This document shows, piece after piece, positions 2-55,280 of a DNA stretch of 58,853 bases. The translations under genes and the position numbers were made by a program. Within the stretch, counting starts at the first letter, position 1, and every line of letters begins with the position of its first letter. The stretch lies in IMG/VR virus record IMGVR_UViG_3300023184_006354, positions 1 to 58,853 of that record. One strand, written 5' to 3'. Below the pieces are notes generated by a model that searched no databases, was not told where the DNA came from, and was given only the letters and a program-made list of their open reading frames with translations. The DNA is from a virus (lineage: Duplodnaviria; Caudoviricetes).

Positions 2-3000
2 TTAATTGATGATGCTGGAAATTATAACTATTCTCAAATTAATTTTAGATATGATAATGGAAATCAAACTAGTGCAATAAGTTTAACAAGTAATTTAGAA
101 AACGCTACTAGTGCAGCAGATATTCCTCAAGCTTCTAGAACTTTAACGTTAGGAGATACTTTAAGATATGGAGCAGATTTTGCTAAAAATTATGATTTTA
201 AAAGTACAAATATAAGTGAATTAATAGTATCTTTAAAAATAACAGCTCTTTTTGATCAACAAAATGATCCAAATAGAGACAGAGTAACTTTTGATTTAGG
301 TTGTGGTCAAACTGCTAAAATTTCACAAACTGCAGGAGATATTAGAGATAGAAGCATAACTTATAGGTTTAAAATTTTTAAAATAACCAGTGGTGGATAT
401 GTTGAAATTCCAGATCTGCAAAGAGATGAAAAAACCGAGGGTAAAATAAGTTCTGGTATAATTGATACTTTTAAATTTGATTTAACTGGCAAATATGATC
501 CAAATGATTTAACATTTTTAGGATGGAGAGTACAAATACAAAGAACTAGTAAAGAAAGTACAGTATTAAATTTAAAAGATTCTGTAACGGTAGATTCGAT
601 TACAGAAGTTTTTAGAGAAGATTATATATATCCAAAATCTGCAATTTTTAAAAGTCTATTTAAATCAGAATATTTTCAAAATGTTCCAGATAGATCATAC
701 GATGTTCAATTATTAAAAATGAAAATTCCAAGCAATTATGATCCAATTAAGAAAACATATAATGGAGATTGGGATGGTAGATTTTCAGATGAATATCATC
801 CTTCTGGTAATGGACTTTATTGGACAGATAATCCAGCATGGTGTTATTATGACATATTAACAAATAAAAGATATGGATTGGGAAAATATATAAAAAATCA
901 ACAAGTAGATAAATGGAATATATATCAAATCGCTCAGTATTGCGATACAATTGTTGATGATGGATTTGGTGGATTAGAACCAAGATTTACTTGTAATGCT
1001 GTCATAAATGATTTTTCTGATGCATTTAGTTTATTAAATGATATGACTAGTATTTTTCGAGGAATGTCTTATTATGCTAATGGTGCAATTTTTGCAATTG
1101 CTGACATGCCAAAAGATCCTTATGTTTTATTTACAAATTCTAACGTAGAAAATGGAGATTTCAATTATTCTAGTAGTAGTAAAAAAACAAGAAATACTGT
1201 TGCAATAGTTAGATATAATGACATGAATTATTTTGCTAAACCAACAGTTGAGCATGTTGAAGATCCAGATGGTGTAAGAAAATATGGGATTAGAAAATTA
1301 GAAATTACTGCATTTGGATGTACAAGCAGAGGACAAGCTTATAGACTTGGAAAGTGGGCATTAGCTAGCGAGCAATTAGAAACAGAAACTGTTGATTTTA
1401 CTGCGGGATTAGATTCAGTATATTTAAGGCCAGGAGATGTTATCAAAATTCAAGATTCAAATAGATTACTGCATAGATTAGGAGGAAGAGTTTTAGGAAT
1501 TAATACGGGAGTTGGAGGTAAACATAAATTTGTTCTTGACGAAGAATTTAATAATATTTCTGGATATTTTACAACAAATTTTCCAGGACAAACTTATAAA
1601 TTAGAAATTCTAACACCTACATCAAGAGCAACTGGAACAAATTATTCTGATTTTATTACTGGTTATGAAAGAAGTAAAATTCAATCTGGACTTTTTCAAA
1701 TGAATTCATCTTTTGTAAATACAGCAACAGGTTATGATCCAGAAAAAACTTTAACCGAAATTAACTGCAATAAAGTATTCAATACAACTGATTATAACTT
1801 ATATACTGGAGCAATTTGGACCGCTCAAACAACTGGTAGCGGATTTGGATTAAATACTGAAACTGAATTATATAGAATTATTGGAATAACTGAAGTTGAG
1901 CCGTTTAAATACAATATAAACGCAATGGAATATAATCCAACTAAATATGCATATGTTGAATCTGGAATATCACTTGCAGATGCTCCAGTAATAACTCCAA
2001 TTTCAGCAAAAGAAGCTAGTTATCCAAGTGGTTTATTTTTATATAAAACAGAAGATCTATATTTAAATTACAAAATAAGTGGAGCGATAGATACGATTAA
2101 CAATGAGACAGCTTATTGGAAAATATATGCTAAAAGTGGAAGCGATTTTATAAGTAATGATCTTCAAATTCAATATGCTAATATTCAAGGCACGACAGTT
2201 AATGTACCAAATGAAGAGTTCTTTTTAAGTTCTATTCAAGTTCCTGATAATAATATTCCTACAAGTGGAAATTATGTTCCTACAATAAATAATCAAAATT
2301 ATTATTTTAGAGTTTATGGCATAAGTCCAAAAGGATATTATTCTAGAAATTATAGACCTGGAAATTTTTATTTTTCTTCTGATTTATTGGGAGATTATAC
2401 TAATTTAATTGAATTGAATGATTTTAAATATAGGTCTAGTTATGATGATTTAACTACGGTTCCAGTTGTAGGTGATCAACCAGGAAGATTTCAATCTGTA
2501 GCTTTAAATACTGGTAATTTAATTCATGATAAAACTTTATCTCTTCAATGGAGTATGAAAAATCTTGCGCCAAGTTTAAAAGTATGGACAAACGATGAAT
2601 TAACTTATAGATTGAGATTTGGAGTTAGAGGTTTTGATGGATCTGGTGTTAATAGTGAAACTGTTATTTATGAAAATTTTTACTCACCTAGCGCTTTATC
2701 TGCAGAATTCGCAGCATTCGTTAACTTTAGTGATGCAAATTTAAGATCATTTTTAACAGATGATGTAATTTCTGGATTTTGGATAACTATTGACGCAAGA
2801 GAAAATGGGGGAACAAAATATACATCTCAAAAAACTTTAGCTGGTACAGCTTATAATCAACCTCATGGTTATCTTTTTGGAAGATTTCAAAATGATCAAA
2901 TGACTTCTGAAAAATATGATATAAATACTGCCACAGCTATTATAAATAGTGATAATAATATATCAATAGTACTAAAAAATCCTAAAAATTATATTGGAAG

Positions 3001-32652: not shown

Positions 32653-33486
32653 TTAATGTATATTCATTCCCCAATCATTTAAATTTGGAATTCCATATTT
32701 ATTTATATGATCTTTGATAAATTTATATTTATAATTCATTTCAATTGGTTGATTATCGTATATATCATATCTTATTTTCAAAGGAAAGTCAAACTCTTCG
32801 TACTCCCAATTAAAATTATTAATTGATTCATCATAGGCTGTTACTGGAACAGTTTTTATATTAAATTTTAATCTATTAACATAGTCTGTGACTTTCCAAA
32901 AGTATTGTTTAATTGCTACTGATTTTTTATCTATCCATTGTAAGTGCGCAATAAAAAGAAATGGTTTGTCTATTATTAAATTTTTACCAGTATGAGGTAA
33001 ATGCGTAGAATGCATTTGTGCTGGTTGAAATATTGCTCTATTTTCATAAGAGCCTATCCTGTCTTTAAAATTAGTTTTCCAAGGACCGTCTACTCTTATT
33101 TGATTTCTATCAGTATATTGAATCCAATGTAAGTAAAAAACTGTATCTTTATTTGAATCTAATACTTTCTCTAAATCTTTTTTTAATAATGTTCCGTCTA
33201 GATATTCATCTGAATCTAAACATATTATATTATTAGAATATTTTAATGCTTCATCATAAAGGCGTTGCCTTAAGTCTGTTTCTATGACAAGTTTATCATT
33301 ATCAATATTAGTTTTTAGAATGCTTAAAATATTATATTTTTCTTTATTCTCTATTAAAAATTCATATGTTCCATCTGTTGATCTATCATCTAAAAATACA
33401 AAACCATCAGCATAGTCTTTCCAAACCTCTAGCATTTCTTTTATAAGAAATAATTCATTTCTTGTCATTGTTATCTGTACAATCAT
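32653..33486 (-). CDS. GT2-like glycosyltransferase
   Basis: TRNE, DDRSTDGT, LDSDE. Confidence 0.8.
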   Translation of the reverse strand: MIVQITMTRNELFLIKEMLEVWKDYADGFVFLDDRSTDGTYEFLIENKEKYNILSILKTNIDNDKLVIETDLRQRLYDEALKYSNNIICLDSDEYLDGTLLKKDLEKVLDSNKDTVFYLHWIQYTDRNQIRVDGPWKTNFKDRIGSYENRAIFQPAQMHSTHLPHTGKNLIIDKPFLFIAHLQWIDKKSVAIKQYFWKVTDYVNRLKFNIKTVPVTAYDESINNFNWEYEEFDFPLKIRYDIYDNQPIEMNYKYKFIKDHINKYGIPNLNDWGMNIH

Positions 33487-34172
33487 TTGTATTTTTCCTG
33501 TATCTCTTTATCTTCCGCTTGAGCTACTTCTAACCCTGCTACAGAAACTGAATCTTCTCTTTGATAAAATGAGCCTATAATATCTGAGATTTTTTTAAAT
33601 TTAAAACCAAATTTAGATAGCTTCAACCACATATCATAGTCTCCAGAAGATTTATAATTTTCATTAAAATATCCAACGCTTTCTATCGCTCTTTTTTTTA
33701 CTAATGGAAAAGGACCACAATAACAAAATTTTAAAAGCAAGTCGTGAGAATAATCTGGCCAATTTCTTAGTCCTACTATAGAATCATAGCTTTGAGAATT
33801 TATAATACAACATGGACTATAAAATAAATCTATTTCTGGATATTTGTTTGCATAGTTTGAATAAGTTTGAATTGCCGATGGATAAATAAGGTCATCAGTA
33901 TTCCAATTCATTACATAAGGATTAGAAGCATTTTTTATACCAATATTCCAAGCATTATATATCGTAATTCTTTCTGAATTCTTTATAATTTGTTTACTAA
34001 TCCCTTTCCTAAAGTTAAAATTATTAATAATGTCTACTGAGTTATCTGATGAATTTGCGTCTATAAAAATAATTTCAAATTCTTTTTCAAATTGATTGTT
34101 TACGCAATTAAGGTAAACATCTAACCATTTAGAAGAATTATATACCGAACAGATAACCGAAATCAAATTCAT
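33483..34172 (-). CDS. GT2 glycosyltransferase
   Basis: ISVICSVYN, IDANSSDNS, IYNAWN.GI, NTDD, GDYDMWL. Confidence 0.9.
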   Translation of the reverse strand: MNLISVICSVYNSSKWLDVYLNCVNNQFEKEFEIIFIDANSSDNSVDIINNFNFRKGISKQIIKNSERITIYNAWNIGIKNASNPYVMNWNTDDLIYPSAIQTYSNYANKYPEIDLFYSPCCIINSQSYDSIVGLRNWPDYSHDLLLKFCYCGPFPLVKKRAIESVGYFNENYKSSGDYDMWLKLSKFGFKFKKISDIIGSFYQREDSVSVAGLEVAQAEDKEIQEKYK

Positions 34173-35079: not shown

Positions 35080-35754
35080 TCAAACTAGGGTTAATAGATA
35101 TTTTAATTGATTTAAAGAACCAAGAATTTCATCTCTAATATTTAATAAATCTGAGTCTTTTGAAGCGTCAAGCATATTAGATAAGCCAATTAAAAATTCA
35201 ATATATTTATCTGTAAGAGCCATAAAATCTGTATCTTTGTAATTAGCTAAAGTAATATTAAATGTATTTGTAGCAATTACTCTGCCGTATTTACCCATAT
35301 AAGTTTCAATGAATTCATCAGTATTTTCTACTAGACTGCTTACTATTTCATCAAATGATTTATGTTGTGAAAATGAAGTTGTTTGCCAATGTAAAATTTT
35401 ATATTGGTGTTGCATTTGAAGAAGAGTTGTTTGAATTAATTCACCCTTACCATCAGTTTCTGCTTTAATTTGACTTTTTACTTCTTCTGCTTTAGTTTCT
35501 TCAACTGGTGCAGTTACGGCTGTATGAGTTGGTTCTTCTATTTTAACTTCTTGTTTATTCATATTTTTAATTTGTTCTGAGAAATCAATTTCAACTTCTG
35601 CCTTGCTTTTCTTTTTAGGATTATTATAAGTGTTGAGACAAATTGCAACTTGTTGTTTATTTTCCATTTTTGGATTATCTTTATTGACCTTATGCATGCA
35701 ACGACCCATGTAATCGTTTTGTTTTTCGTTATCTTTTGGCTGGGGTATTGGCAT
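35080..35754 (-). CDS. Ferritin-like (DUF5856-type) protein with short N-terminal phage motif
   Basis: HWQT.S..QHK..D, D.FIETYMGKYG, DLLNIRDEILG.LN.LKYLLTL; N-terminal MPIPQP..E...YM.RCM...AIC. Confidence 0.7.
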   Translation of the reverse strand: MPIPQPKDNEKQNDYMGRCMHKVNKDNPKMENKQQVAICLNTYNNPKKKSKAEVEIDFSEQIKNMNKQEVKIEEPTHTAVTAPVEETKAEEVKSQIKAETDGKGELIQTTLLQMQHQYKILHWQTTSFSQHKSFDEIVSSLVENTDEFIETYMGKYGRVIATNTFNITLANYKDTDFMALTDKYIEFLIGLSNMLDASKDSDLLNIRDEILGSLNQLKYLLTLV

Positions 35755-35768: not shown

Positions 35769-35829
35769 TTAAAATAAATAAATAAATACATATAAGATAT
35801 TATAGTTAATATAATTAAATAAATTTTAT

Positions 35830-35858
35830 TTGACAAAATATATTGATTCATATATTAT
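35830..35858 (+). promoter_or_regulatory. Sigma70-like promoter driving the structured RNA and possibly nrdAB
   Basis: TTGACA(35830-35835)-17 nt-TATTAT(35853-35858); predicted start near 35865. Confidence 0.75.
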
Positions 35859-35864
35859 AGTACG

Positions 35865-36150
35865 ACATCTCGCTGCAAAGCGAAAAGGTTTGCCATACTC
35901 CTCAAAATGGTGAGTTAGATTAGTTCTTAACGTCGGGCAACGCTATCAAAGCTTGCGCCCCGAGAAACCAGAAGAAATTCTGGGAGTGTAGGTGTAAGGG
36001 CTAACACGCGATGGATGATCCTACCGACATCCGATAAGTGTTAGGTGGCCGAAAGGCTTACGGACTCAATTGGGAAATAGAACTAATGGCTCGAGCAATC
36101 CTGTAGTAAAATACAGGGAAAGCTTTGCTTTGTAAGGAGCTCATTGGGAA
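35865..36150 (+). ncRNA. Unidentified structured non-coding RNA (~280 nt) with GNRA hairpins and a pseudoknot
   Basis: GC-enriched island with no ORF in the track; many complementary helices found by eye (detailed in findings); GNRA loops on the + strand. Confidence 0.75.
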
Positions 36151-36283
36151 ATATTTATTAAGAAAAGATATAAAATCAGTACACTTGTTTAGTATGATAT
36201 AAAGTTATTAACACTAGTTTGATTATTTTTCTTTTATAAAAATTAAAAACACTGTAAACTATTCTTTACCTTAGAAACAAAAT

Positions 36284-38545
36284 ATGAGCAAAAATGTTAT
36301 TATAAAGAAAAGAAATGGTGCAACAGAAAAATTTGATGTAGAAAAAATAAATAAAGTAATCAACTGGGCAATTGATGGTTATTCTGGAGTCAGTTTAACA
36401 GATATTGAAATCAATGCAAAAATAAACATACATGATGGTATCACAAGCAAAGAGATACACAACCTATTGATTGAAAGTGCAGCTAATCTTATTTCAACTG
36501 AAAAACCAAATTATCAATTTGTCGCAGCGAGGCTTTTGAATTACCAACTAAGAAAAGATGTTTGGAAAGGTAAGCATGCTCCAAGGCTATCAGAGTTTTT
36601 AAATCAAGGCATAAAGAATAAAGTATACGATACTTCAATTCTAGAAAATTATTCTGAAGACGAAATAAATAAAATCGGAGAGTTCATTGATCACGAAAGA
36701 GATTTTACTTTCACTTATGCTGGAATTAAACAGCTTTGCGATAAATATTTAATTAAAAATAGAACCACTGGTCAAATTTATGAAACTCCACAATTTGCTT
36801 ATATATTAATTGCATCTTATGCTTTTGCAAAATATCCAGTAGATTCAAGATTGAATTATGTAAGAAAATTCTATGACGCGATTAGTAAGCATAAAATTAA
36901 TTTACCAACGCCAGTAATGGCTGGAGTAAGAACTTCTAGTAGGAATTATGCTAGTTGTTGTTTAATTGGGGTAGACGACACAAGAGAAAGTATTACAGCT
37001 AGTGCAACTGCTGTTAGTATGGCTACAGCTAATAGATGTGGAATTGGTATTGATATTAGTAAGATTAGAGCTATTGGATCACCAATCAAGAATGGCGAAG
37101 TTGTTCATACTGGTTTAATCCCATTTTTAAAAATCTATGAAAGTAGCGTAAAAGCTTGGCAACAAAATGGCTTAAGAGGTGGTAGCGCAACTTGCAATAT
37201 TCAATGGTGGCATTATGAAATTGAAGATATTGTTGTACTAAAGAATAATGCTGGAACAGATGACAATCGAGTTCGTAAGCTTGATTATACTGTTGGCATG
37301 AGTAAATTATTCTATGATCGAGTTTTGAAAGATGAAGATATTACATTATTCAATAATTCAGAAGTTCCAGAGCTTTACGAAGCTTGGGGAACCAAAGACT
37401 TTGATAAAGTATATAAAGAATGCGAATCTAAAAAATTAAAATTAAAAAAGAAAGTATCTGCTAGAAAATTATTCTCTTTGATAATTAAAGAAAGAGTTGA
37501 AACTGGTCGTATTTATATTCTTAATGTAGATCATGCTAACGAGCATGGAGCTTGGTCTGATAAAGTTACGATGAGTAATCTTTGCACAGAAGTTATCCAT
37601 CCAACTATTCCATTAAACGATTACAATGACAAGAATGGGGAAATTGGAATGTGCATTCTTTCGGCAGTAAATATGCTAGAAATAAAAAACTGGCAGGATC
37701 TTGAAAAGACTTGCGATCTTATCGTAAGATTTCTTGATGAAATCATTGAACTTCAAGATTACTTTAATGTTGCTGCTGAAAATTTTGCTAAAAAACGTAG
37801 AAGTCTTGGAGTTGGTATTACTAATCTTGCAGCTTTTCTTGCTAAAAATGAATTAAAATATAGTTCAGATAAGTCACTACCAGTAATTGATGAATGGATG
37901 GAATACTTTCAATATTATCTTTTAAAGAGTAGTCTAGAATTAGCCAAAGAAAAAGGTAAGTGTGAAAAATTCAATCATACAAAATATTCTAAAGGCATAT
38001 TACCAATTGATACTTACAAAGATAAAGTAGACGAAATATGTAAAAGAAAACTATCTCTTGATTGGGAAAAGCTAAGAAAACAAATTAAAGAACATGGTTT
38101 AAGACACTCAACATTATCTTCCTGTATGCCTTGTGAAAGTAGTTCGGTTATTCAATCCTCCACAAATGGTGTTGAACCTATTCGTAGTCTTATTACTTAT
38201 AAAACTAGTAAAATGGGCAAGCTTCCAGTAATGGTTCCAGGAATTGGCAAGTATGATGATAATTATGAATTAGCTTATGATCTTAAAGATAATAATGGAT
38301 TATTAAAAATAAATGCAGTAATTCAAAAATATATTGACATGGCTATATCAACTAATGTATACTACAACTATAGTCATTATGAGAATAATATATTACCAGA
38401 CGCTAAAGTAATGAAAGAAATCATGTACGCATATAGTCTTGGCTTAATTAGTCTTTATTATAATAATACAGATGATGGAGATAGAGAACAATCCCTAGAT
38501 CAAAAAGAAGACGGAGATTGTTCTAGCGGTGCGTGTAAGCTATAA
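36284..38545 (+). CDS. nrdA: Ribonucleotide reductase class Ia alpha subunit with ATP cone
   Basis: IKKRNG ATP cone, PTPVMAG, SCC, SNLCTE, CIL, MPCESSS, NGVEP, SLYY, C-terminal CSSGAC. Confidence 0.97.
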   Translation: MSKNVIIKKRNGATEKFDVEKINKVINWAIDGYSGVSLTDIEINAKINIHDGITSKEIHNLLIESAANLISTEKPNYQFVAARLLNYQLRKDVWKGKHAPRLSEFLNQGIKNKVYDTSILENYSEDEINKIGEFIDHERDFTFTYAGIKQLCDKYLIKNRTTGQIYETPQFAYILIASYAFAKYPVDSRLNYVRKFYDAISKHKINLPTPVMAGVRTSSRNYASCCLIGVDDTRESITASATAVSMATANRCGIGIDISKIRAIGSPIKNGEVVHTGLIPFLKIYESSVKAWQQNGLRGGSATCNIQWWHYEIEDIVVLKNNAGTDDNRVRKLDYTVGMSKLFYDRVLKDEDITLFNNSEVPELYEAWGTKDFDKVYKECESKKLKLKKKVSARKLFSLIIKERVETGRIYILNVDHANEHGAWSDKVTMSNLCTEVIHPTIPLNDYNDKNGEIGMCILSAVNMLEIKNWQDLEKTCDLIVRFLDEIIELQDYFNVAAENFAKKRRSLGVGITNLAAFLAKNELKYSSDKSLPVIDEWMEYFQYYLLKSSLELAKEKGKCEKFNHTKYSKGILPIDTYKDKVDEICKRKLSLDWEKLRKQIKEHGLRHSTLSSCMPCESSSVIQSSTNGVEPIRSLITYKTSKMGKLPVMVPGIGKYDDNYELAYDLKDNNGLLKINAVIQKYIDMAISTNVYYNYSHYENNILPDAKVMKEIMYAYSLGLISLYYNNTDDGDREQSLDQKEDGDCSSGACKL

Positions 38546-39974: not shown

Positions 39975-40325
39975 TCAATCAGTATGTGATTTAGGGTGTT
40001 TTTTACCATTACGTTTTTTACTCCAGTCTTTAAAATATTTATTTTTAACTGGATCTTTACCATAGAGTTGTTGTCTCTTTTCAGAAAGCTCTTTGCTTCT
40101 GTCAAAAAGATCACCAACATTTCCTTTTTGGGAAGAAGTTACTCTAGCGAAGTCTTTATCACTTGAATTTGCTGATAGTTTTTCTTGGGTATTAATTTGT
40201 GGGCTAGTAAATAATCGATTCCATTTTACACCCTTTACGTCAATATATTGGTGCTTATCATTGATTCCTTGTATCAAACAAATTGTTCTTCCATCAGTAG
40301 GATGTTGATACATATATTCTGGCAT
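39975..40325 (-). CDS. FmdB-like small protein lacking the zinc-ribbon cysteines
   Basis: MPEYMYQHPTDG resembles MP.Y.Y.CxxCG; DPVK..YF. Confidence 0.5.
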   Translation of the reverse strand: MPEYMYQHPTDGRTICLIQGINDKHQYIDVKGVKWNRLFTSPQINTQEKLSANSSDKDFARVTSSQKGNVGDLFDRSKELSEKRQQLYGKDPVKNKYFKDWSKKRNGKKHPKSHTD

Positions 40326-47340: not shown

Positions 47341-47550
47341 ATGAAACAAAAAAATACACAAAAACTAAATGTTCTTAAAAGAATGCTAGGAAAAAGAGTA
47401 GCAGTTATAACAAATTATAATACTCTTGATCATTTTTATGGGGAAGTATTAGAAGTAATTGATGAAACTAATGTTGTAGTAAAAAGTGATAGAAATGAAG
47501 ATTCTAAAGTTTCAATTTTTGATATTAGAAATCCAGCGCAAGAGTTATAA
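47341..47550 (+). CDS. Small protein, possible Sm/LSm-like fold
   Basis: LKRMLGKRVAV......FYGEV..V.DETNVVV resembles the Sm1 motif; promoter TTGATA-17-TATAAT-8-ATG. Confidence 0.45.
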   Translation: MKQKNTQKLNVLKRMLGKRVAVITNYNTLDHFYGEVLEVIDETNVVVKSDRNEDSKVSIFDIRNPAQEL

Positions 47551-49322: not shown

Positions 49323-49389
49323 GTAAGTATCATACATGGATATTATTGTATTGTCTAGTAAAAAATGCAGACACAGGGATTCGTTTGCT

Positions 49390-49809
49390 TGGACCCGAGA
49401 GGAATTGAACCTCTGTCTTTTAAAAATCTAAATTAAAATACTACAAGTTTAGTTTATTCCGTTAGTTCGCTAAAGAGTCGAATAAACAATTGGTTTTTAG
49501 CTATTCATTTAATAATAAATTTAACCTTGGTCAAATTCATCCCTAATAATTCTTATAAAAAATCAAATGAAAAGGATTATATAAGAATACATCTAATAAC
49601 GCAATATTCCAGTAGATGTGTCGTGGATATCACGCTGTAACTTAGGCTACAGATTCGGTCATCTCAACAAGAGAAACTCTTGCAGAAATATGACCTTTAT
49701 ATTTTGCTGTTTTGGCAGTTAATATAAGTGAAACTTTTTTAGGAGTCCTCGATTCAACCTCCACTTGCATTTCAATTTATTTTCTTAAAATCGAAACCAT
49801 TACGGGCCC
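49390..49809 (-). ncRNA. ssrA: tmRNA (transfer-messenger RNA)
   Basis: 5' GGGCCCG-TAATGGTTTCGA; 3' T-arm AGAGG-TTCAATT-CCTCT then CGGGTCC-A; G3.U alanine determinant; internal tag ORF 49716-49642 after TTAACT; CCA not encoded. Confidence 0.92.
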
Positions 49810-55119: not shown

Positions 55120-55191
55120 TCCCAAATAGCTCAATGGTAGAGCACTTCGCTGTTAACGAGGCTGTTCTAGGTTCAAATCCTAGTTTGGGAG
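55120..55191 (+). tRNA. tRNA-Asn (GTT)
   Basis: Acceptor TCCCAAA/TTTGGGA, D-arm GCTC..GAGC, anticodon loop CTGTTAA, T-loop TTCAAAT, discriminator G; no CCA. Upstream promoter TTGACA(55067)-16-TATAAT. Confidence 0.92.
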
Positions 55192-55193
55192 CT

Positions 55194-55280
55194 GGGGCGA
55201 TGGTTGAGCGGTTTAAAACAGCAGTTTACTAAACTGCCGATGGAGAAATCCATTCGTAGGTTCGAATCCTACTCGCCCCG
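55194..55280 (+). tRNA. tRNA-Ser (ACT), class II with long variable arm
   Basis: Acceptor GGGGCGA/TCGCCCC, anticodon stem GCAGT/ACTGC with loop TTACTAA, variable arm ATGGA-GAAA-TCCAT, T-arm GTAGG-TTCGAAT-CCTAC, G73. Confidence 0.9.

What the first reader, a model, noticed from the sequence alone, without database searches (positions are those of the whole stretch)
35865..36150. Unrecognised ~280-nt pseudoknotted structured RNA with its own promoter, upstream of nrdA
Seen in sequence: a GC-enriched island with no ORF in the track, in a very AT-rich genome, starting just after TTGACA-17-TATTAT. Helices found by eye: TCGCT-GCAA-AGCGA (35870-83); long-range GCCAT(35892-96) and TAGTTCT(35921-27) pairing with the contiguous AGAACTAATGGC(36079-90); TCGG..GCAA..GCT/AGC..TTGC..CCGA (35933-63); CCAGAA-GAAA-TTCTGG (35968-83); GAGT/ACTC (35984/36064); GTAAG/CTTAC (35994/36057); CTAACAC/GTGTTAG (36001/36038); GGATG/CATCC (36013/36028), whose loop CCTAC (36020-24) can pair with GTAGG (35988-92) as a pseudoknot; GCC-GAAA-GGC (36048-57); and a 3' domain closed by GAGC/GCTC containing CCTGTA/TACAGG. 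Three GNRA tetraloops point to the + strand. Inference: nested multi-way junctions plus a pseudoknot suggest a ribozyme-like or ligand-binding RNA, either a stand-alone phage ncRNA or a leader regulating ribonucleotide reductase about 130 nt downstream. I do not recognise it as any family I know. This is the best candidate for an undescribed system.
Basis: partly seen in the sequence, partly recalled or inferred. Interest (0 to 1): 0.9.

Follow-up and report, generated by a model that had tools for sequence, protein, structure and literature searches.

The report
Novel structured RNA of lake phages
The flagged stretch is a real, intricately folded RNA gene of about 290 nucleotides with its own promoter; it matches no known RNA family, occurs once in every phage examined of a freshwater T4-like group, and carries the same short exposed sequence twice, so it looks like a free-standing RNA tool rather than a switch for the gene next door.

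Summary
Window 35865-36153 (+) is a GC-rich island behind a TTGACA-17-TATTAT promoter. It has no ORF and no Rfam 15 match.

I collected 102 distinct homologues, all from IMG/VR phage contigs and none from 185,579 cellular genomes. On 27 sequences, 67 pairs in 13 helices are 97.7% paired and 32 pairs show compensatory changes; 0 of 500 shuffles reach this.

A second long-range pseudoknot, 35947-54 with 36120-27, was missed; it has 13 co-varying variants.

The link to nrdA is incidental:
- A covariance model finds exactly one copy in each of 21 contigs.
- In most relatives the gene lies elsewhere, usually convergent with its neighbour.

The most unusual feature is a single-stranded element of 10-13 nt that stands both in the central junction (36069-79) and at the 3' end (36143-53). 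It has nine sequence variants, yet its two copies are identical in 102 of 102 RNAs. I found no complement to it.

Best reading: a clade-universal, trans-acting scaffold RNA that presents two identical recognition elements. Its partner is unknown and its function is unproven.

The parts
35830..35858 (+). sigma-70-type promoter: TTGACA, 17-nt spacer, TATTAT
   Evidence: 11 of 12 matches. TTGAYA-16..18-TAnnnT is found upstream of 99 of 102 distinct homologues.
35865..36153 (+). the RNA itself, about 289 nt. The 5' end is inferred from the promoter and the 3' end from where conservation stops.
   Evidence: Homology among relatives starts just before the -35 box and stops at the second copy of the twin element. 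Covariation.
35870..35883 (+). 5' hairpin TCGCT-GCAA-AGCGA. The stem varies with compensation; the loop is GNRA here and 7-9 nt elsewhere.
   Evidence: Alignments, read by eye. The clades are out of register in A1, so this helix was not counted.
35892..35911 (+). hairpin GCCAT / ATGGT
   Evidence: helix 2: 3 of 5 pairs have changes on both sides; 100% of cells paired.
35912..35916 (+). 5' strand of the long-range helix GAGTT, pairing with 36088-36092
   Evidence: helix 3: 4 of 5 pairs have changes on both sides.
35920..35926 (+). 5' strand of the long-range helix TTAGTTC, pairing with 36080-36086
   Evidence: helix 4: 5 of 7 pairs have changes on both sides.
35933..35963 (+). stem TCGGG..CGC / GCG..CCCGA. 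Its loop carries the 5' strand of pseudoknot 2 (35947-35954).
   Evidence: helices 5-7; 13 variants of the pseudoknot.
35968..35983 (+). hairpin CCAGAA-GAAA-TTCTGG
   Evidence: helix 8: 4 of 6 pairs have changes on both sides.
35988..35992 (+). 5' strand of pseudoknot 1 (GTAGG), pairing with 36020-36024 (CCTAC)
   Evidence: Within A1 only G-C to G-U changes occur (helix 9). Across subfamilies the changes are compensatory.
36001..36044 (+). domain CTAACAC/GTGTTAG enclosing GGATG/CATCC. The inner loop holds the 3' strand of pseudoknot 1.
   Evidence: helices 10 and 11.
36048..36057 (+). hairpin GCC-GAAA-GGC
   Evidence: helix 12. In other subfamilies a longer hairpin takes its place.
36062..36079 (+). 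twin element, copy 1 (GGA-CTCA-ATTGGGAAATA), single-stranded in the central junction
   Evidence: repeat D4, 36069-79 = 36143-53.
36080..36092 (+). 3' strands of the two long-range helices (GAACTAA, GGCTC)
   Evidence: helices 3 and 4.
36100..36117 (+). variable hairpin CCTGTA / TACAGG
   Evidence: helix 13, counted in the register of RNAalifold.
36120..36127 (+). 3' strand of pseudoknot 2 (AAGCTTTG), pairing with 35947-35954
   Evidence: pairs 98-288 and 99-287: GC/AU 19/5 and 17/8.
36136..36153 (+). twin element, copy 2 (GGA-GCTC-ATTGGGAAATA), the 3' end of the conserved unit
   Evidence: Sequence beyond it is not conserved among subfamilies.

Best explanation
This is a free-standing, early-transcribed, non-coding RNA gene. 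Each phage of one freshwater T4-like (Kyanoviridae-like) clade carries one copy.

The RNA folds into a compact scaffold: a multi-way junction closed by two long-range helices and locked by two pseudoknots. The scaffold displays one short purine-rich element twice, once in the central junction and once as the 3' tail.

I think it most likely acts in trans as a bivalent adaptor or guide-like RNA. In that reading the conserved fold is the handle, for a protein or for self-assembly, and the two identical single-stranded elements are read by one and the same partner, most plausibly by base pairing.

Shown:
- the gene, its promoter, the fold, single copy per contig in all 21 contigs examined, and its independence from nrdA
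- the strict identity of the two copies.

Inferred:
- that it is transcribed and ends at the second copy
- that it acts in trans
- that the twin element is a recognition element
- the identity of the partner, which is unknown.
For: Structure:
- 67 pairs are 97.7% paired and 32 show changes on both sides. 0 of 500 shuffles reach this, and slid controls give at most 9 such pairs.
- Pseudoknot 2 has 13 variants in the 99 sequences parsed out of 101. Cognate strands give a mean of 7.35 of 8 pairs against 5.90 for non-cognate strands.
- Pseudoknot 1 has at least 5 compensatory variants.

Stand-alone gene:
- One model hit in each of 20 whole contigs, plus the window.
- Own promoter in 99 of 102.
- In the 61 contigs with the commonest form, the 3' neighbour is convergent in at least 46 (c616 in 34, c639 in 12) and is nrdA in 5.
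- A different gene follows it in L064.
- No conserved ORF.

Twin element:
- Exact repeat of 10-13 nt in 33 of 33 and 27 of 27 sequences.
- Over 102 distinct RNAs there are 9 core variants.
- The pyrimidine before the core is C in both copies (84) or T in both (18), never mixed.
- The scaffold motifs do not change with the element, so the element behaves like cargo.

Phage-only distribution: 61 viral contigs and 0 of 185,579 cellular genomes for the commonest form.
Against: - No transcript was seen. The one metatranscriptome on offer held only flanking genes of relatives.
- No complement of the element sits at a conserved place in 21 contigs. However, these are only 26-87% complete and the host is unknown.
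- No partner protein is universal.
  - A 69-aa small-barrel ORF (window 47341-47550) is in 9 of 11 contigs that have the RNA before nrdA and in 0 of 8 of the others.
  - Another 69-aa ORF (c0) is the divergent neighbour in 45 of 61 but is absent from the first group.
  - Both patterns may simply follow phylogeny.
- 75 of 102 RNAs share one element, AAAGAAAAGT, so it is not a fast-changing guide.
- A target that co-evolved with both copies should leave intermediates in which the copies differ. None is seen. That fits at least as well with a mechanism that needs identity as such (see the rivals).
Confidence: 0.4

Rival explanations
1. A self-processing ribozyme. The fold is a catalytic core and the second copy of the element marks the site where the RNA cuts itself free, since no terminator follows it. 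The internal copy occupies the substrate site in the mature RNA or is a second site.
For: - The size and the two-pseudoknot complexity are typical of ribozymes (general knowledge, recalled).
- No intrinsic terminator lies after the RNA, and the gene often runs head-on into the next gene about 25 nt away.
- Conservation stops exactly at copy 2.
- Both copies are preceded by N-U-C/U and then A, which would fit a cleavage-site rule.
Against: - No Rfam ribozyme model matches.
- No strand in the RNA is complementary to the element to hold it as a substrate (also by eye).
- Cutting at copy 1 would sever the strands of the two closing helices.
Confidence: 0.2
2. The identity of the two copies is needed as homology, not for reading. 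One possibility is that a polymerase copying the RNA jumps from one copy to the other, as in template jumping by reverse transcriptases. Another is that the upstream RNA copy pairs with the DNA template at the downstream copy, as in R-loop or primer formation. A third is that the copies are DNA recombination sites of a movable cassette.
For: - Only two-way identity is observed, with no third co-varying partner and no intermediates.
- The gene has at least five different 3' contexts, and the junction always falls just after copy 2.
- The nrdAB block appears inverted between the RNA and a lysine-rich ORF end that resembles the element (read by eye).
- An AT-rich stretch follows copy 2.
Against: - No reverse transcriptase, IS110-type recombinase or TnpB-type domain in 16 contigs.
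- The unit between the copies is 65-75 nt, varies in length, and has stops in all frames, so it is not a coding repeat.
- No DNA contig lacks the 74-nt unit (table 5; contigs hide rare forms).
- In the window's group the element changed but the lysine-rich ORF end did not.
Confidence: 0.15
3. An RNA-protein particle or protein sponge. The two purine-rich elements are binding sites for a ring-shaped or dimeric RNA-binding protein (phage Sm/Hfq-like protein, host Hfq, S1 or the like), and the fold positions them.
For: - A 69-aa ORF co-occurs with one group of the RNAs: 9 of 11 against 0 of 8.
- JGI names several members of that family snRNP-like.
- Its model (pLDDT 88) is a helix plus a small beta barrel, with Z of about 6 to Hfq chains.
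Against: - The same model scores Z 6-7.6 to Tudor, PWWP and KOW domains, so the fold is not decisive. There is no Pfam LSM match.
- The protein is absent from 2 RNA-bearing contigs that cover its site and from all 8 of the other group.
- A fixed protein site would not explain mirrored changes in both copies.
Confidence: 0.15
4. A cis-acting leader (riboswitch or attenuator) that controls nrdAB.
For: - In the window and in 25 of the 80 nrdA loci it lies directly upstream of nrdA on the same strand with no terminator between.
- All 9 further contigs found by pattern also show it next to nrdA where the context is visible, which is 8 of 9.
Against: - Most family members are elsewhere and convergent with their neighbour.
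- The nrdA-proximal leader is conserved without the RNA.
- Pairing of the element with the leader is no better than with shuffled leaders.
- Isolated pelagimyophages have primase directly before nrdA and no such RNA.
Confidence: 0.05

Closest known systems
Large orphan structured RNAs of bacteria and phages (GOLLD, ROOL, OLE, raiA, HEARO as first described). Recalled; for the first two I saw the abstract of 10.1101/2024.12.08.627333 in a search listing.
   Same: Long, GC-enriched relative to its genome, many covarying helices and pseudoknots, own promoter, no ORF, found by comparative analysis, function not evident from context. Several of these are phage-borne.
   Different: No sequence or structure match to any of them in Rfam 15. 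It is much smaller than GOLLD or ROOL and is confined to one clade of T4-like lake phages. The identical twin element is not a described feature of those classes, as far as I recall.
Guide-RNA scaffolds of mobile elements: IscB/TnpB omega RNAs and IS110 bridge RNAs (recalled).
   Same: A conserved folded scaffold carries short single-stranded segments whose sequence can change without change in the scaffold. One segment sits in an internal loop or junction and one at an end. The gene is found in several genomic contexts.
   Different: No TnpB-type or IS110-type protein domain in 16 contigs, and none next to the RNA. The two segments are identical to each other rather than specifying two different sites. 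The commonest element is shared by 75 of 102 RNAs.
RNAs in which an upstream segment is repeated downstream for a transfer step: ColE1 RNA II G-runs, the hepadnavirus epsilon bulge with DR1, and the template ends of the DRT2 ncRNA. Recalled; abstracts on DRT systems appeared in the listing.
   Same: Two stretches of identical sense in one structured RNA, one inside a folded element and one near the 3' end. This is a constraint on identity, not on complementarity.
   Different: Those repeats are 3-6 nt and work with a known polymerase. Here they are 10-13 nt plus a matching pyrimidine, and no reverse transcriptase was found in the phage contigs.
Riboswitches known upstream of ribonucleotide reductase genes: cobalamin and 2'-deoxyguanosine classes (recalled).
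   Same: In the window, its position in front of nrdA.
   Different: No Rfam match. It is far larger than purine-type aptamers, and its position is not kept in the family.

Membership tests
Any Rfam 15 family (4227 models) | cmscan score at or above the family's gathering score | tested here: not met
   In the whole window at gathering threshold, only tmRNA and 2 tRNAs matched, all elsewhere. In the region at E<=10, only a 14-bit chance match to a lncRNA appeared. Two distant relatives at E<=10 gave only chance matches.
Group I intron | Interrupts a gene whose exons join to an intact product | tested here: not met
   The locus is intergenic. NrdA is complete from its ATG, with ATP-cone, all-alpha and barrel domains. 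There is no ORF upstream on the + strand.
Group I intron | Conserved P3-P9 core with a G-binding P7 | tested here: not met
   No match to the Rfam group I model at E<=10. I made no manual mapping of a P7.
Bacterial RNase P RNA | Match to the RNase P covariance models (P4 core) | tested here: not met
   A by-eye resemblance of GGCTTA and GGGAAAG to conserved regions was recalled only and led nowhere.
Hammerhead or other small self-cleaving ribozymes | Catalytic core motifs as modelled in Rfam | tested here: not met
   No match. The N-U-H triplet before both copies is suggestive only.
Riboswitch or leader of nrdAB | Constant position in the 5' untranslated region of the controlled gene | tested here: not met
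   The 3' neighbour is nrdA in 5 of 61 contigs with the commonest form. In 21 of 80 nrdA loci the RNA is downstream of nrdB on the other strand. In L064 another ORF intervenes.
Riboswitch | Ligand binding with a structural switch | not testable with these tools
   Needs in-line probing or a similar experiment.
IS110 bridge RNA | Encoded beside a DEDD (IS110-type) recombinase | tested here: not met
   PF01548 is absent from 16 contigs, while the controls gave hits in 7 of 14 genomes. The contigs are 39-87% complete.
TnpB/IscB omega RNA | Encoded beside the RNA-guided nuclease | tested here: not met
   PF07282 is absent from 16 contigs. The neighbours are nrdA, DUF5856, c0, c616 and c639. IscB-specific domains were not searched.
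Reverse-transcriptase template RNAs (retron, DRT) | A reverse transcriptase gene in the same element or genome | tested here: not met
   PF00078 is absent from the window and from 16 contigs. A host-encoded enzyme cannot be excluded.
Type III antitoxin RNA (ToxI-like) | Tandem repeats of the whole unit next to a toxin gene | tested here: not met
   Only the 11-nt element repeats; the 63 nt between the copies are unique. No toxin family was searched.
Sm/Hfq family (for the 69-aa ORF at 47341-47550) | Sm fold (N-terminal helix plus bent five-stranded sheet) and a match to the LSM/Hfq profile | tested here: inconclusive
   Pfam gives only a weak RimP SH3 match, E 0.11. The model is a helix plus 4 strands. 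Hfq chains score Z 6.0-6.2, but Tudor and KOW domains score Z 6.4-7.6. The JGI name is 'snRNP-like'.

The most novel reading that the evidence does not exclude
The RNA is the guide component of an undescribed RNA-directed system of T4-like phages. The junction copy and the tail copy of the element each pair with a DNA (or RNA) site of that sequence, bringing two like sites together for recombination, priming or cutting by a protein of no known family. This would account for three things: the strict identity of the copies, the junction that always falls right after copy 2, and the several genomic positions and the inverted nrdAB block around the gene.
Probability: 0.1. Interest if true: 0.95.

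Novelty: categorically new. Interest (0 to 1): 0.8.

Why it matters
Large RNAs with this much tertiary structure are rare, and past examples became ribozymes, riboswitches or guide RNAs once understood. This one is well defined:
- 102 distinct sequences
- two pseudoknots proven by covariation
- one copy in each of the 21 contigs examined from an abundant group of lake phages.

It also carries a constraint I know from no described RNA class: two single-stranded copies that must stay identical while their sequence is free to change. That constraint makes the function directly testable by changing one copy, both copies, or both to a new sequence.

The result also corrects a tempting mis-annotation of the RNA as an nrdA riboswitch.

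Caveat: a catalogue of 10,006 unnamed viral RNA candidates from IMG/VR (PMC10690425; I saw the abstract, outline and a term search) may list it. Its supplements were not opened here, and its main text does not mention ribonucleotide reductase.

Tried and rejected
Searches that found nothing or gave no information:
- BLASTN of the region against 50,697 phage records: no match.
- Expression: of the 23 runs listed, 1 is on record as RNA, and 4 runs were laid. The RNA contigs cover only flanking genes of relatives and nothing at 35808-36317, so nothing can be said about transcription, ends or joints.
- Four literature searches found no description of this RNA.

Partners for the twin element:
- In cis: column scans gave only wobble-rich or chance pairings, for example with 35920-24.
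- With the nrdA leader: duplex energies are no better than with shuffled leaders, z mostly -1.5 to +1.3.
- Extra copies or complements in the window or in whole contigs: only chance matches inside genes.

Structural ideas left open or dropped:
- A closing helix between AAGGTTT (about 35887-93) and GGA.CT before copy 2, proposed by RNAalifold, is invariant in 27 sequences and not kept in other subfamilies. It is unresolved.
- Pairing of the 5' hairpin loop with the stretch before copy 2, or with copy 1, is perfect in some groups (L033, L036) and absent in others. It is unresolved.

My own corrections:
- The presence or absence of the RNA among relatives, which I first took as real from nhmmer, was wrong. 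The covariance model found the missing copies.
- The first gene-content contrast therefore compares two arrangements, not RNA-plus against RNA-minus.

Other:
- The general two-anchor pattern in viral contigs mostly gave chance matches; among the 46 loci new to that scan, 1 (L151) came from a contig not seen before.
- The c0 protein model has no fold match and no Pfam or PHROG match.
- The unit between the copies as a coding repeat: rejected, because there are stops in all frames and its length is not a multiple of three.

Full report
WHAT IS THERE

The window is an IMG/VR virus record of 58.8 kb, estimated 39% complete. It comes from lake and freshwater metagenomes: 20 of the 23 listed runs, from 10 studies, hold part of it.

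Its NrdA is closest, at 53% identity, to the pelagimyophages Mosig and HTVC008M of the Kyanoviridae. The phage is therefore a T4-like myophage distant from any isolate.

At 35875-36100 the G+C content rises to 47-49% against about 22-31% around it. A TTGACA-17-TATTAT promoter ends 6-7 nt before the island. There is no ORF of 40 aa or more. No Rfam 15 family matches, either at the gathering scores over the whole window or at E<=10 in the region. Folding energy alone is not decisive: z = -2.9 on the plus strand and -2.6 on the minus strand.

HOMOLOGUES

- Starting from NrdA I fetched 80 related loci from viral contigs. nhmmer found the RNA in 20 of them, always just upstream of nrdA.
- A motif scan that does not depend on nrdA returned 30 stretches. 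Of these, 28 are the RNA, 9 of them from contigs not yet seen, and 2 are chance matches.
- By eye I then found a far-diverged form in five more loci (L033 group).
- A covariance model of the 120-nt core changed the picture:
  - Besides 25 loci and the window with the RNA before nrdA, it found weaker but clear matches (29-45 bits) on the opposite strand downstream of nrdB in 21 further loci.
  - It found exactly one match in each of 20 whole contigs, including all 9 that I had scored as lacking the RNA.
  - It found none in HTVC008M, Mosig or a complete 217-kb outgroup contig, and only a chance-level match (E 0.41) in a second outgroup contig.
- The commonest form, defined by both copies of its twin element, occurs in 61 viral contigs and in none of 185,579 cellular genomes.
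- In total I hold 102 distinct sequences.

STRUCTURE

On 27 sequences of the window's subfamily plus L071, a structure of 67 pairs in 13 helices is 97.7% paired. Thirty-two pairs have changes on both sides. 0 of 500 column shuffles reach the observed values, and partners slid by 1-3 columns give at most 9 such pairs.

The architecture is as follows:
- a 5' hairpin
- a local hairpin GCCAT/ATGGT
- two long-range helices, 35912-16 with 36088-92 and 35920-26 with 36080-86, which close a junction
- within the junction: a stem whose loop is used for a pseudoknot, the CCAGAA hairpin, a two-tier domain (CTAACAC/GTGTTAG over GGATG/CATCC), and a GAAA-capped hairpin
- a 3' part with a variable hairpin.

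Two pseudoknots lock the fold.
Across subfamilies it is compensatory: GTAGC/GCTAC, GTGGC/GCCAC, GTGGA/TCCAC and GTAGTT/AACTAC (the parse is imperfect for some rows).
- The second one was new to this analysis. It pairs loop 35947-54 with 36120-27 and has 13 sequence variants among the 99 RNAs parsed out of 101. Cognate strands form a mean of 7.35 of 8 pairs; non-cognate strands form 5.90.

All five subfamilies share this plan, the promoter, and a start near ACATAG.

NOT AN nrdA LEADER

- The roughly 110 nt next to nrdA are conserved in loci where the RNA is not in front of it.
- In L064 a 371-aa ORF separates the RNA from nrdA.
- In the downstream arrangement the RNA converges on a 171-173-aa ORF whose stop codon is about 25 nt from the RNA's end.
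- Among the 61 contigs with the commonest form, the 3' neighbour is that ORF (c616, convergent) in 34, c639 (convergent) in 12, nrdA in 5 and c1 in 3.
- In the same 61 contigs, the 5' neighbour is a divergent 69-aa ORF (c0) in 45.
- By eye, the two main arrangements differ as if the nrdAB block were inverted between the RNA and a small lysine-rich ORF: that ORF is upstream of nrdA where the RNA is downstream, and the reverse.

THE TWIN ELEMENT

The 11 nt at 36069-79 recur at 36143-53. With their left context the two copies read GGA-N4-core.

In every one of the 102 RNAs the two cores are identical over 10-13 nt, although nine different cores exist: AAAGAAAAGT in 75, ATTGGGAAGT in 11, ATTGGGAAAT in 7, and six rarer ones. 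The pyrimidine before the core is C in both copies (84) or T in both (18), never mixed.

Copy 1 is a long single strand in the junction. Copy 2 is the last conserved stretch of the gene.

I found no complementary partner:
- not within the RNA
- not in the nrdA leader, where pairing is no better than with shuffles
- not at any conserved place in 21 contigs.

Scaffold motifs do not change when the element changes.

PARTNERS TESTED

Gene content was compared over 21 contigs.
- A 69-aa ORF (window 47341-47550) is present in 9 of 11 contigs that have the RNA before nrdA and cover the syntenic spot, and in 0 of 8 with the other arrangement. Some database copies are named snRNP-like. Its model is a helix plus a small beta barrel. 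The barrel resembles Tudor, KOW and Hfq domains about equally, Z 6-7.6, so an Sm assignment is inconclusive.
- The c0 ORF, the neighbour in the other arrangement, has a confident model with no fold match.
- Neither protein is universal, and both patterns may reflect descent.
- No reverse transcriptase, IS110-type recombinase or TnpB-type domain is present in 16 contigs.

READING

Firmly shown: this is a new, clade-universal, single-copy, phage-only gene for a complex-fold RNA with its own early-type promoter, and it is independent of nrdA.

Most likely (0.4): a trans-acting scaffold that presents two identical recognition elements to one partner.

The absence of any intermediate in which the copies differ keeps two other ideas alive. 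One is that identity as such is required, as in template jumping, R-loop seeding or recombination. The other is that the element marks a self-processing site. No expression data could be obtained, and the host is unknown.

IN PRINT

Four full-text searches found no description. The viral RNA catalogue PMC10690425 (abstract, outline and term search seen) may contain it unnamed in supplements that I did not open.

Noticed in passing
window 49389-49809 (-): The phage encodes a tmRNA (Rfam RF00023, 94.8 bits, full length), with long insertions relative to the model.
   Followed up: no
window 55120-55191 and 55194-55280 (+): Two adjacent tRNA genes (Rfam tRNA, 69.3 and 57.9 bits). The second has a long variable arm.
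   Followed up: no
window 47341-47550 (+): A 69-aa ORF with a helix plus small-beta-barrel model (pLDDT 88); JGI names some copies snRNP-like. It is present in 9 of 11 contigs with the RNA before nrdA and in 0 of 8 with the other arrangement, and always lies between gene clusters 623 and 624.
   Followed up: partly
L054 7845-8054 (+); L226 15142-15351 (-), and relatives: A conserved 69-aa ORF (c0, three conserved cysteines) is transcribed divergently from the RNA in 45 of 61 contigs with the commonest RNA form. Its model is confident (pLDDT 89, strand-helix-hairpin-helix), with no fold, Pfam or PHROG match.
   Followed up: partly
window 36170-36283; same stretch in L006, L076, L033, L008: The nrdA-proximal leader carries boxes conserved in all relatives (GTACAC, TTAACAC/TGTTAATAA, a TTTTTCTTTT tract, ACTGTAA). 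These are possibly the operator or promoter of nrdAB. In some relatives the GTACAC box lies inside the end of an upstream ORF.
   Followed up: no
window 39975-40325 (-), versus upstream of nrdA in L008, L017, L018, L026: A small ORF ending ..WSKKR.G..HP.. lies convergent downstream of the nrdAB block where the RNA is upstream, and upstream of nrdA where the RNA is downstream. This looks as if the block had been inverted. Its lysine codons resemble the commonest twin element. Read by eye only.
   Followed up: partly
window 35080-35754 (-): The divergent neighbour has a DUF5856 domain (Pfam, E 4e-17) and matches a PHROG annotated as a starvation-inducible transcriptional regulator (E 3e-15). The upstream neighbour differs among close relatives.
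   Followed up: no
L064 1790-2905 (+): In one relative a 371-aa ORF, not annotated here, is inserted between the RNA and nrdA. Several glycosyltransferase-like genes lie around this region in the window (33483-34172 is a family 2 glycosyltransferase).
   Followed up: no
L033 group, about 70-45 nt before the GTAGG motif: In that subfamily the loop of the hairpin that replaces CCAGAA/TTCTGG contains AAAAGCTT, the motif that forms pseudoknot 2 in the window's subfamily. Meanwhile its own pseudoknot 2 uses TAGGCT/AGCCTA. No explanation.
   Followed up: no
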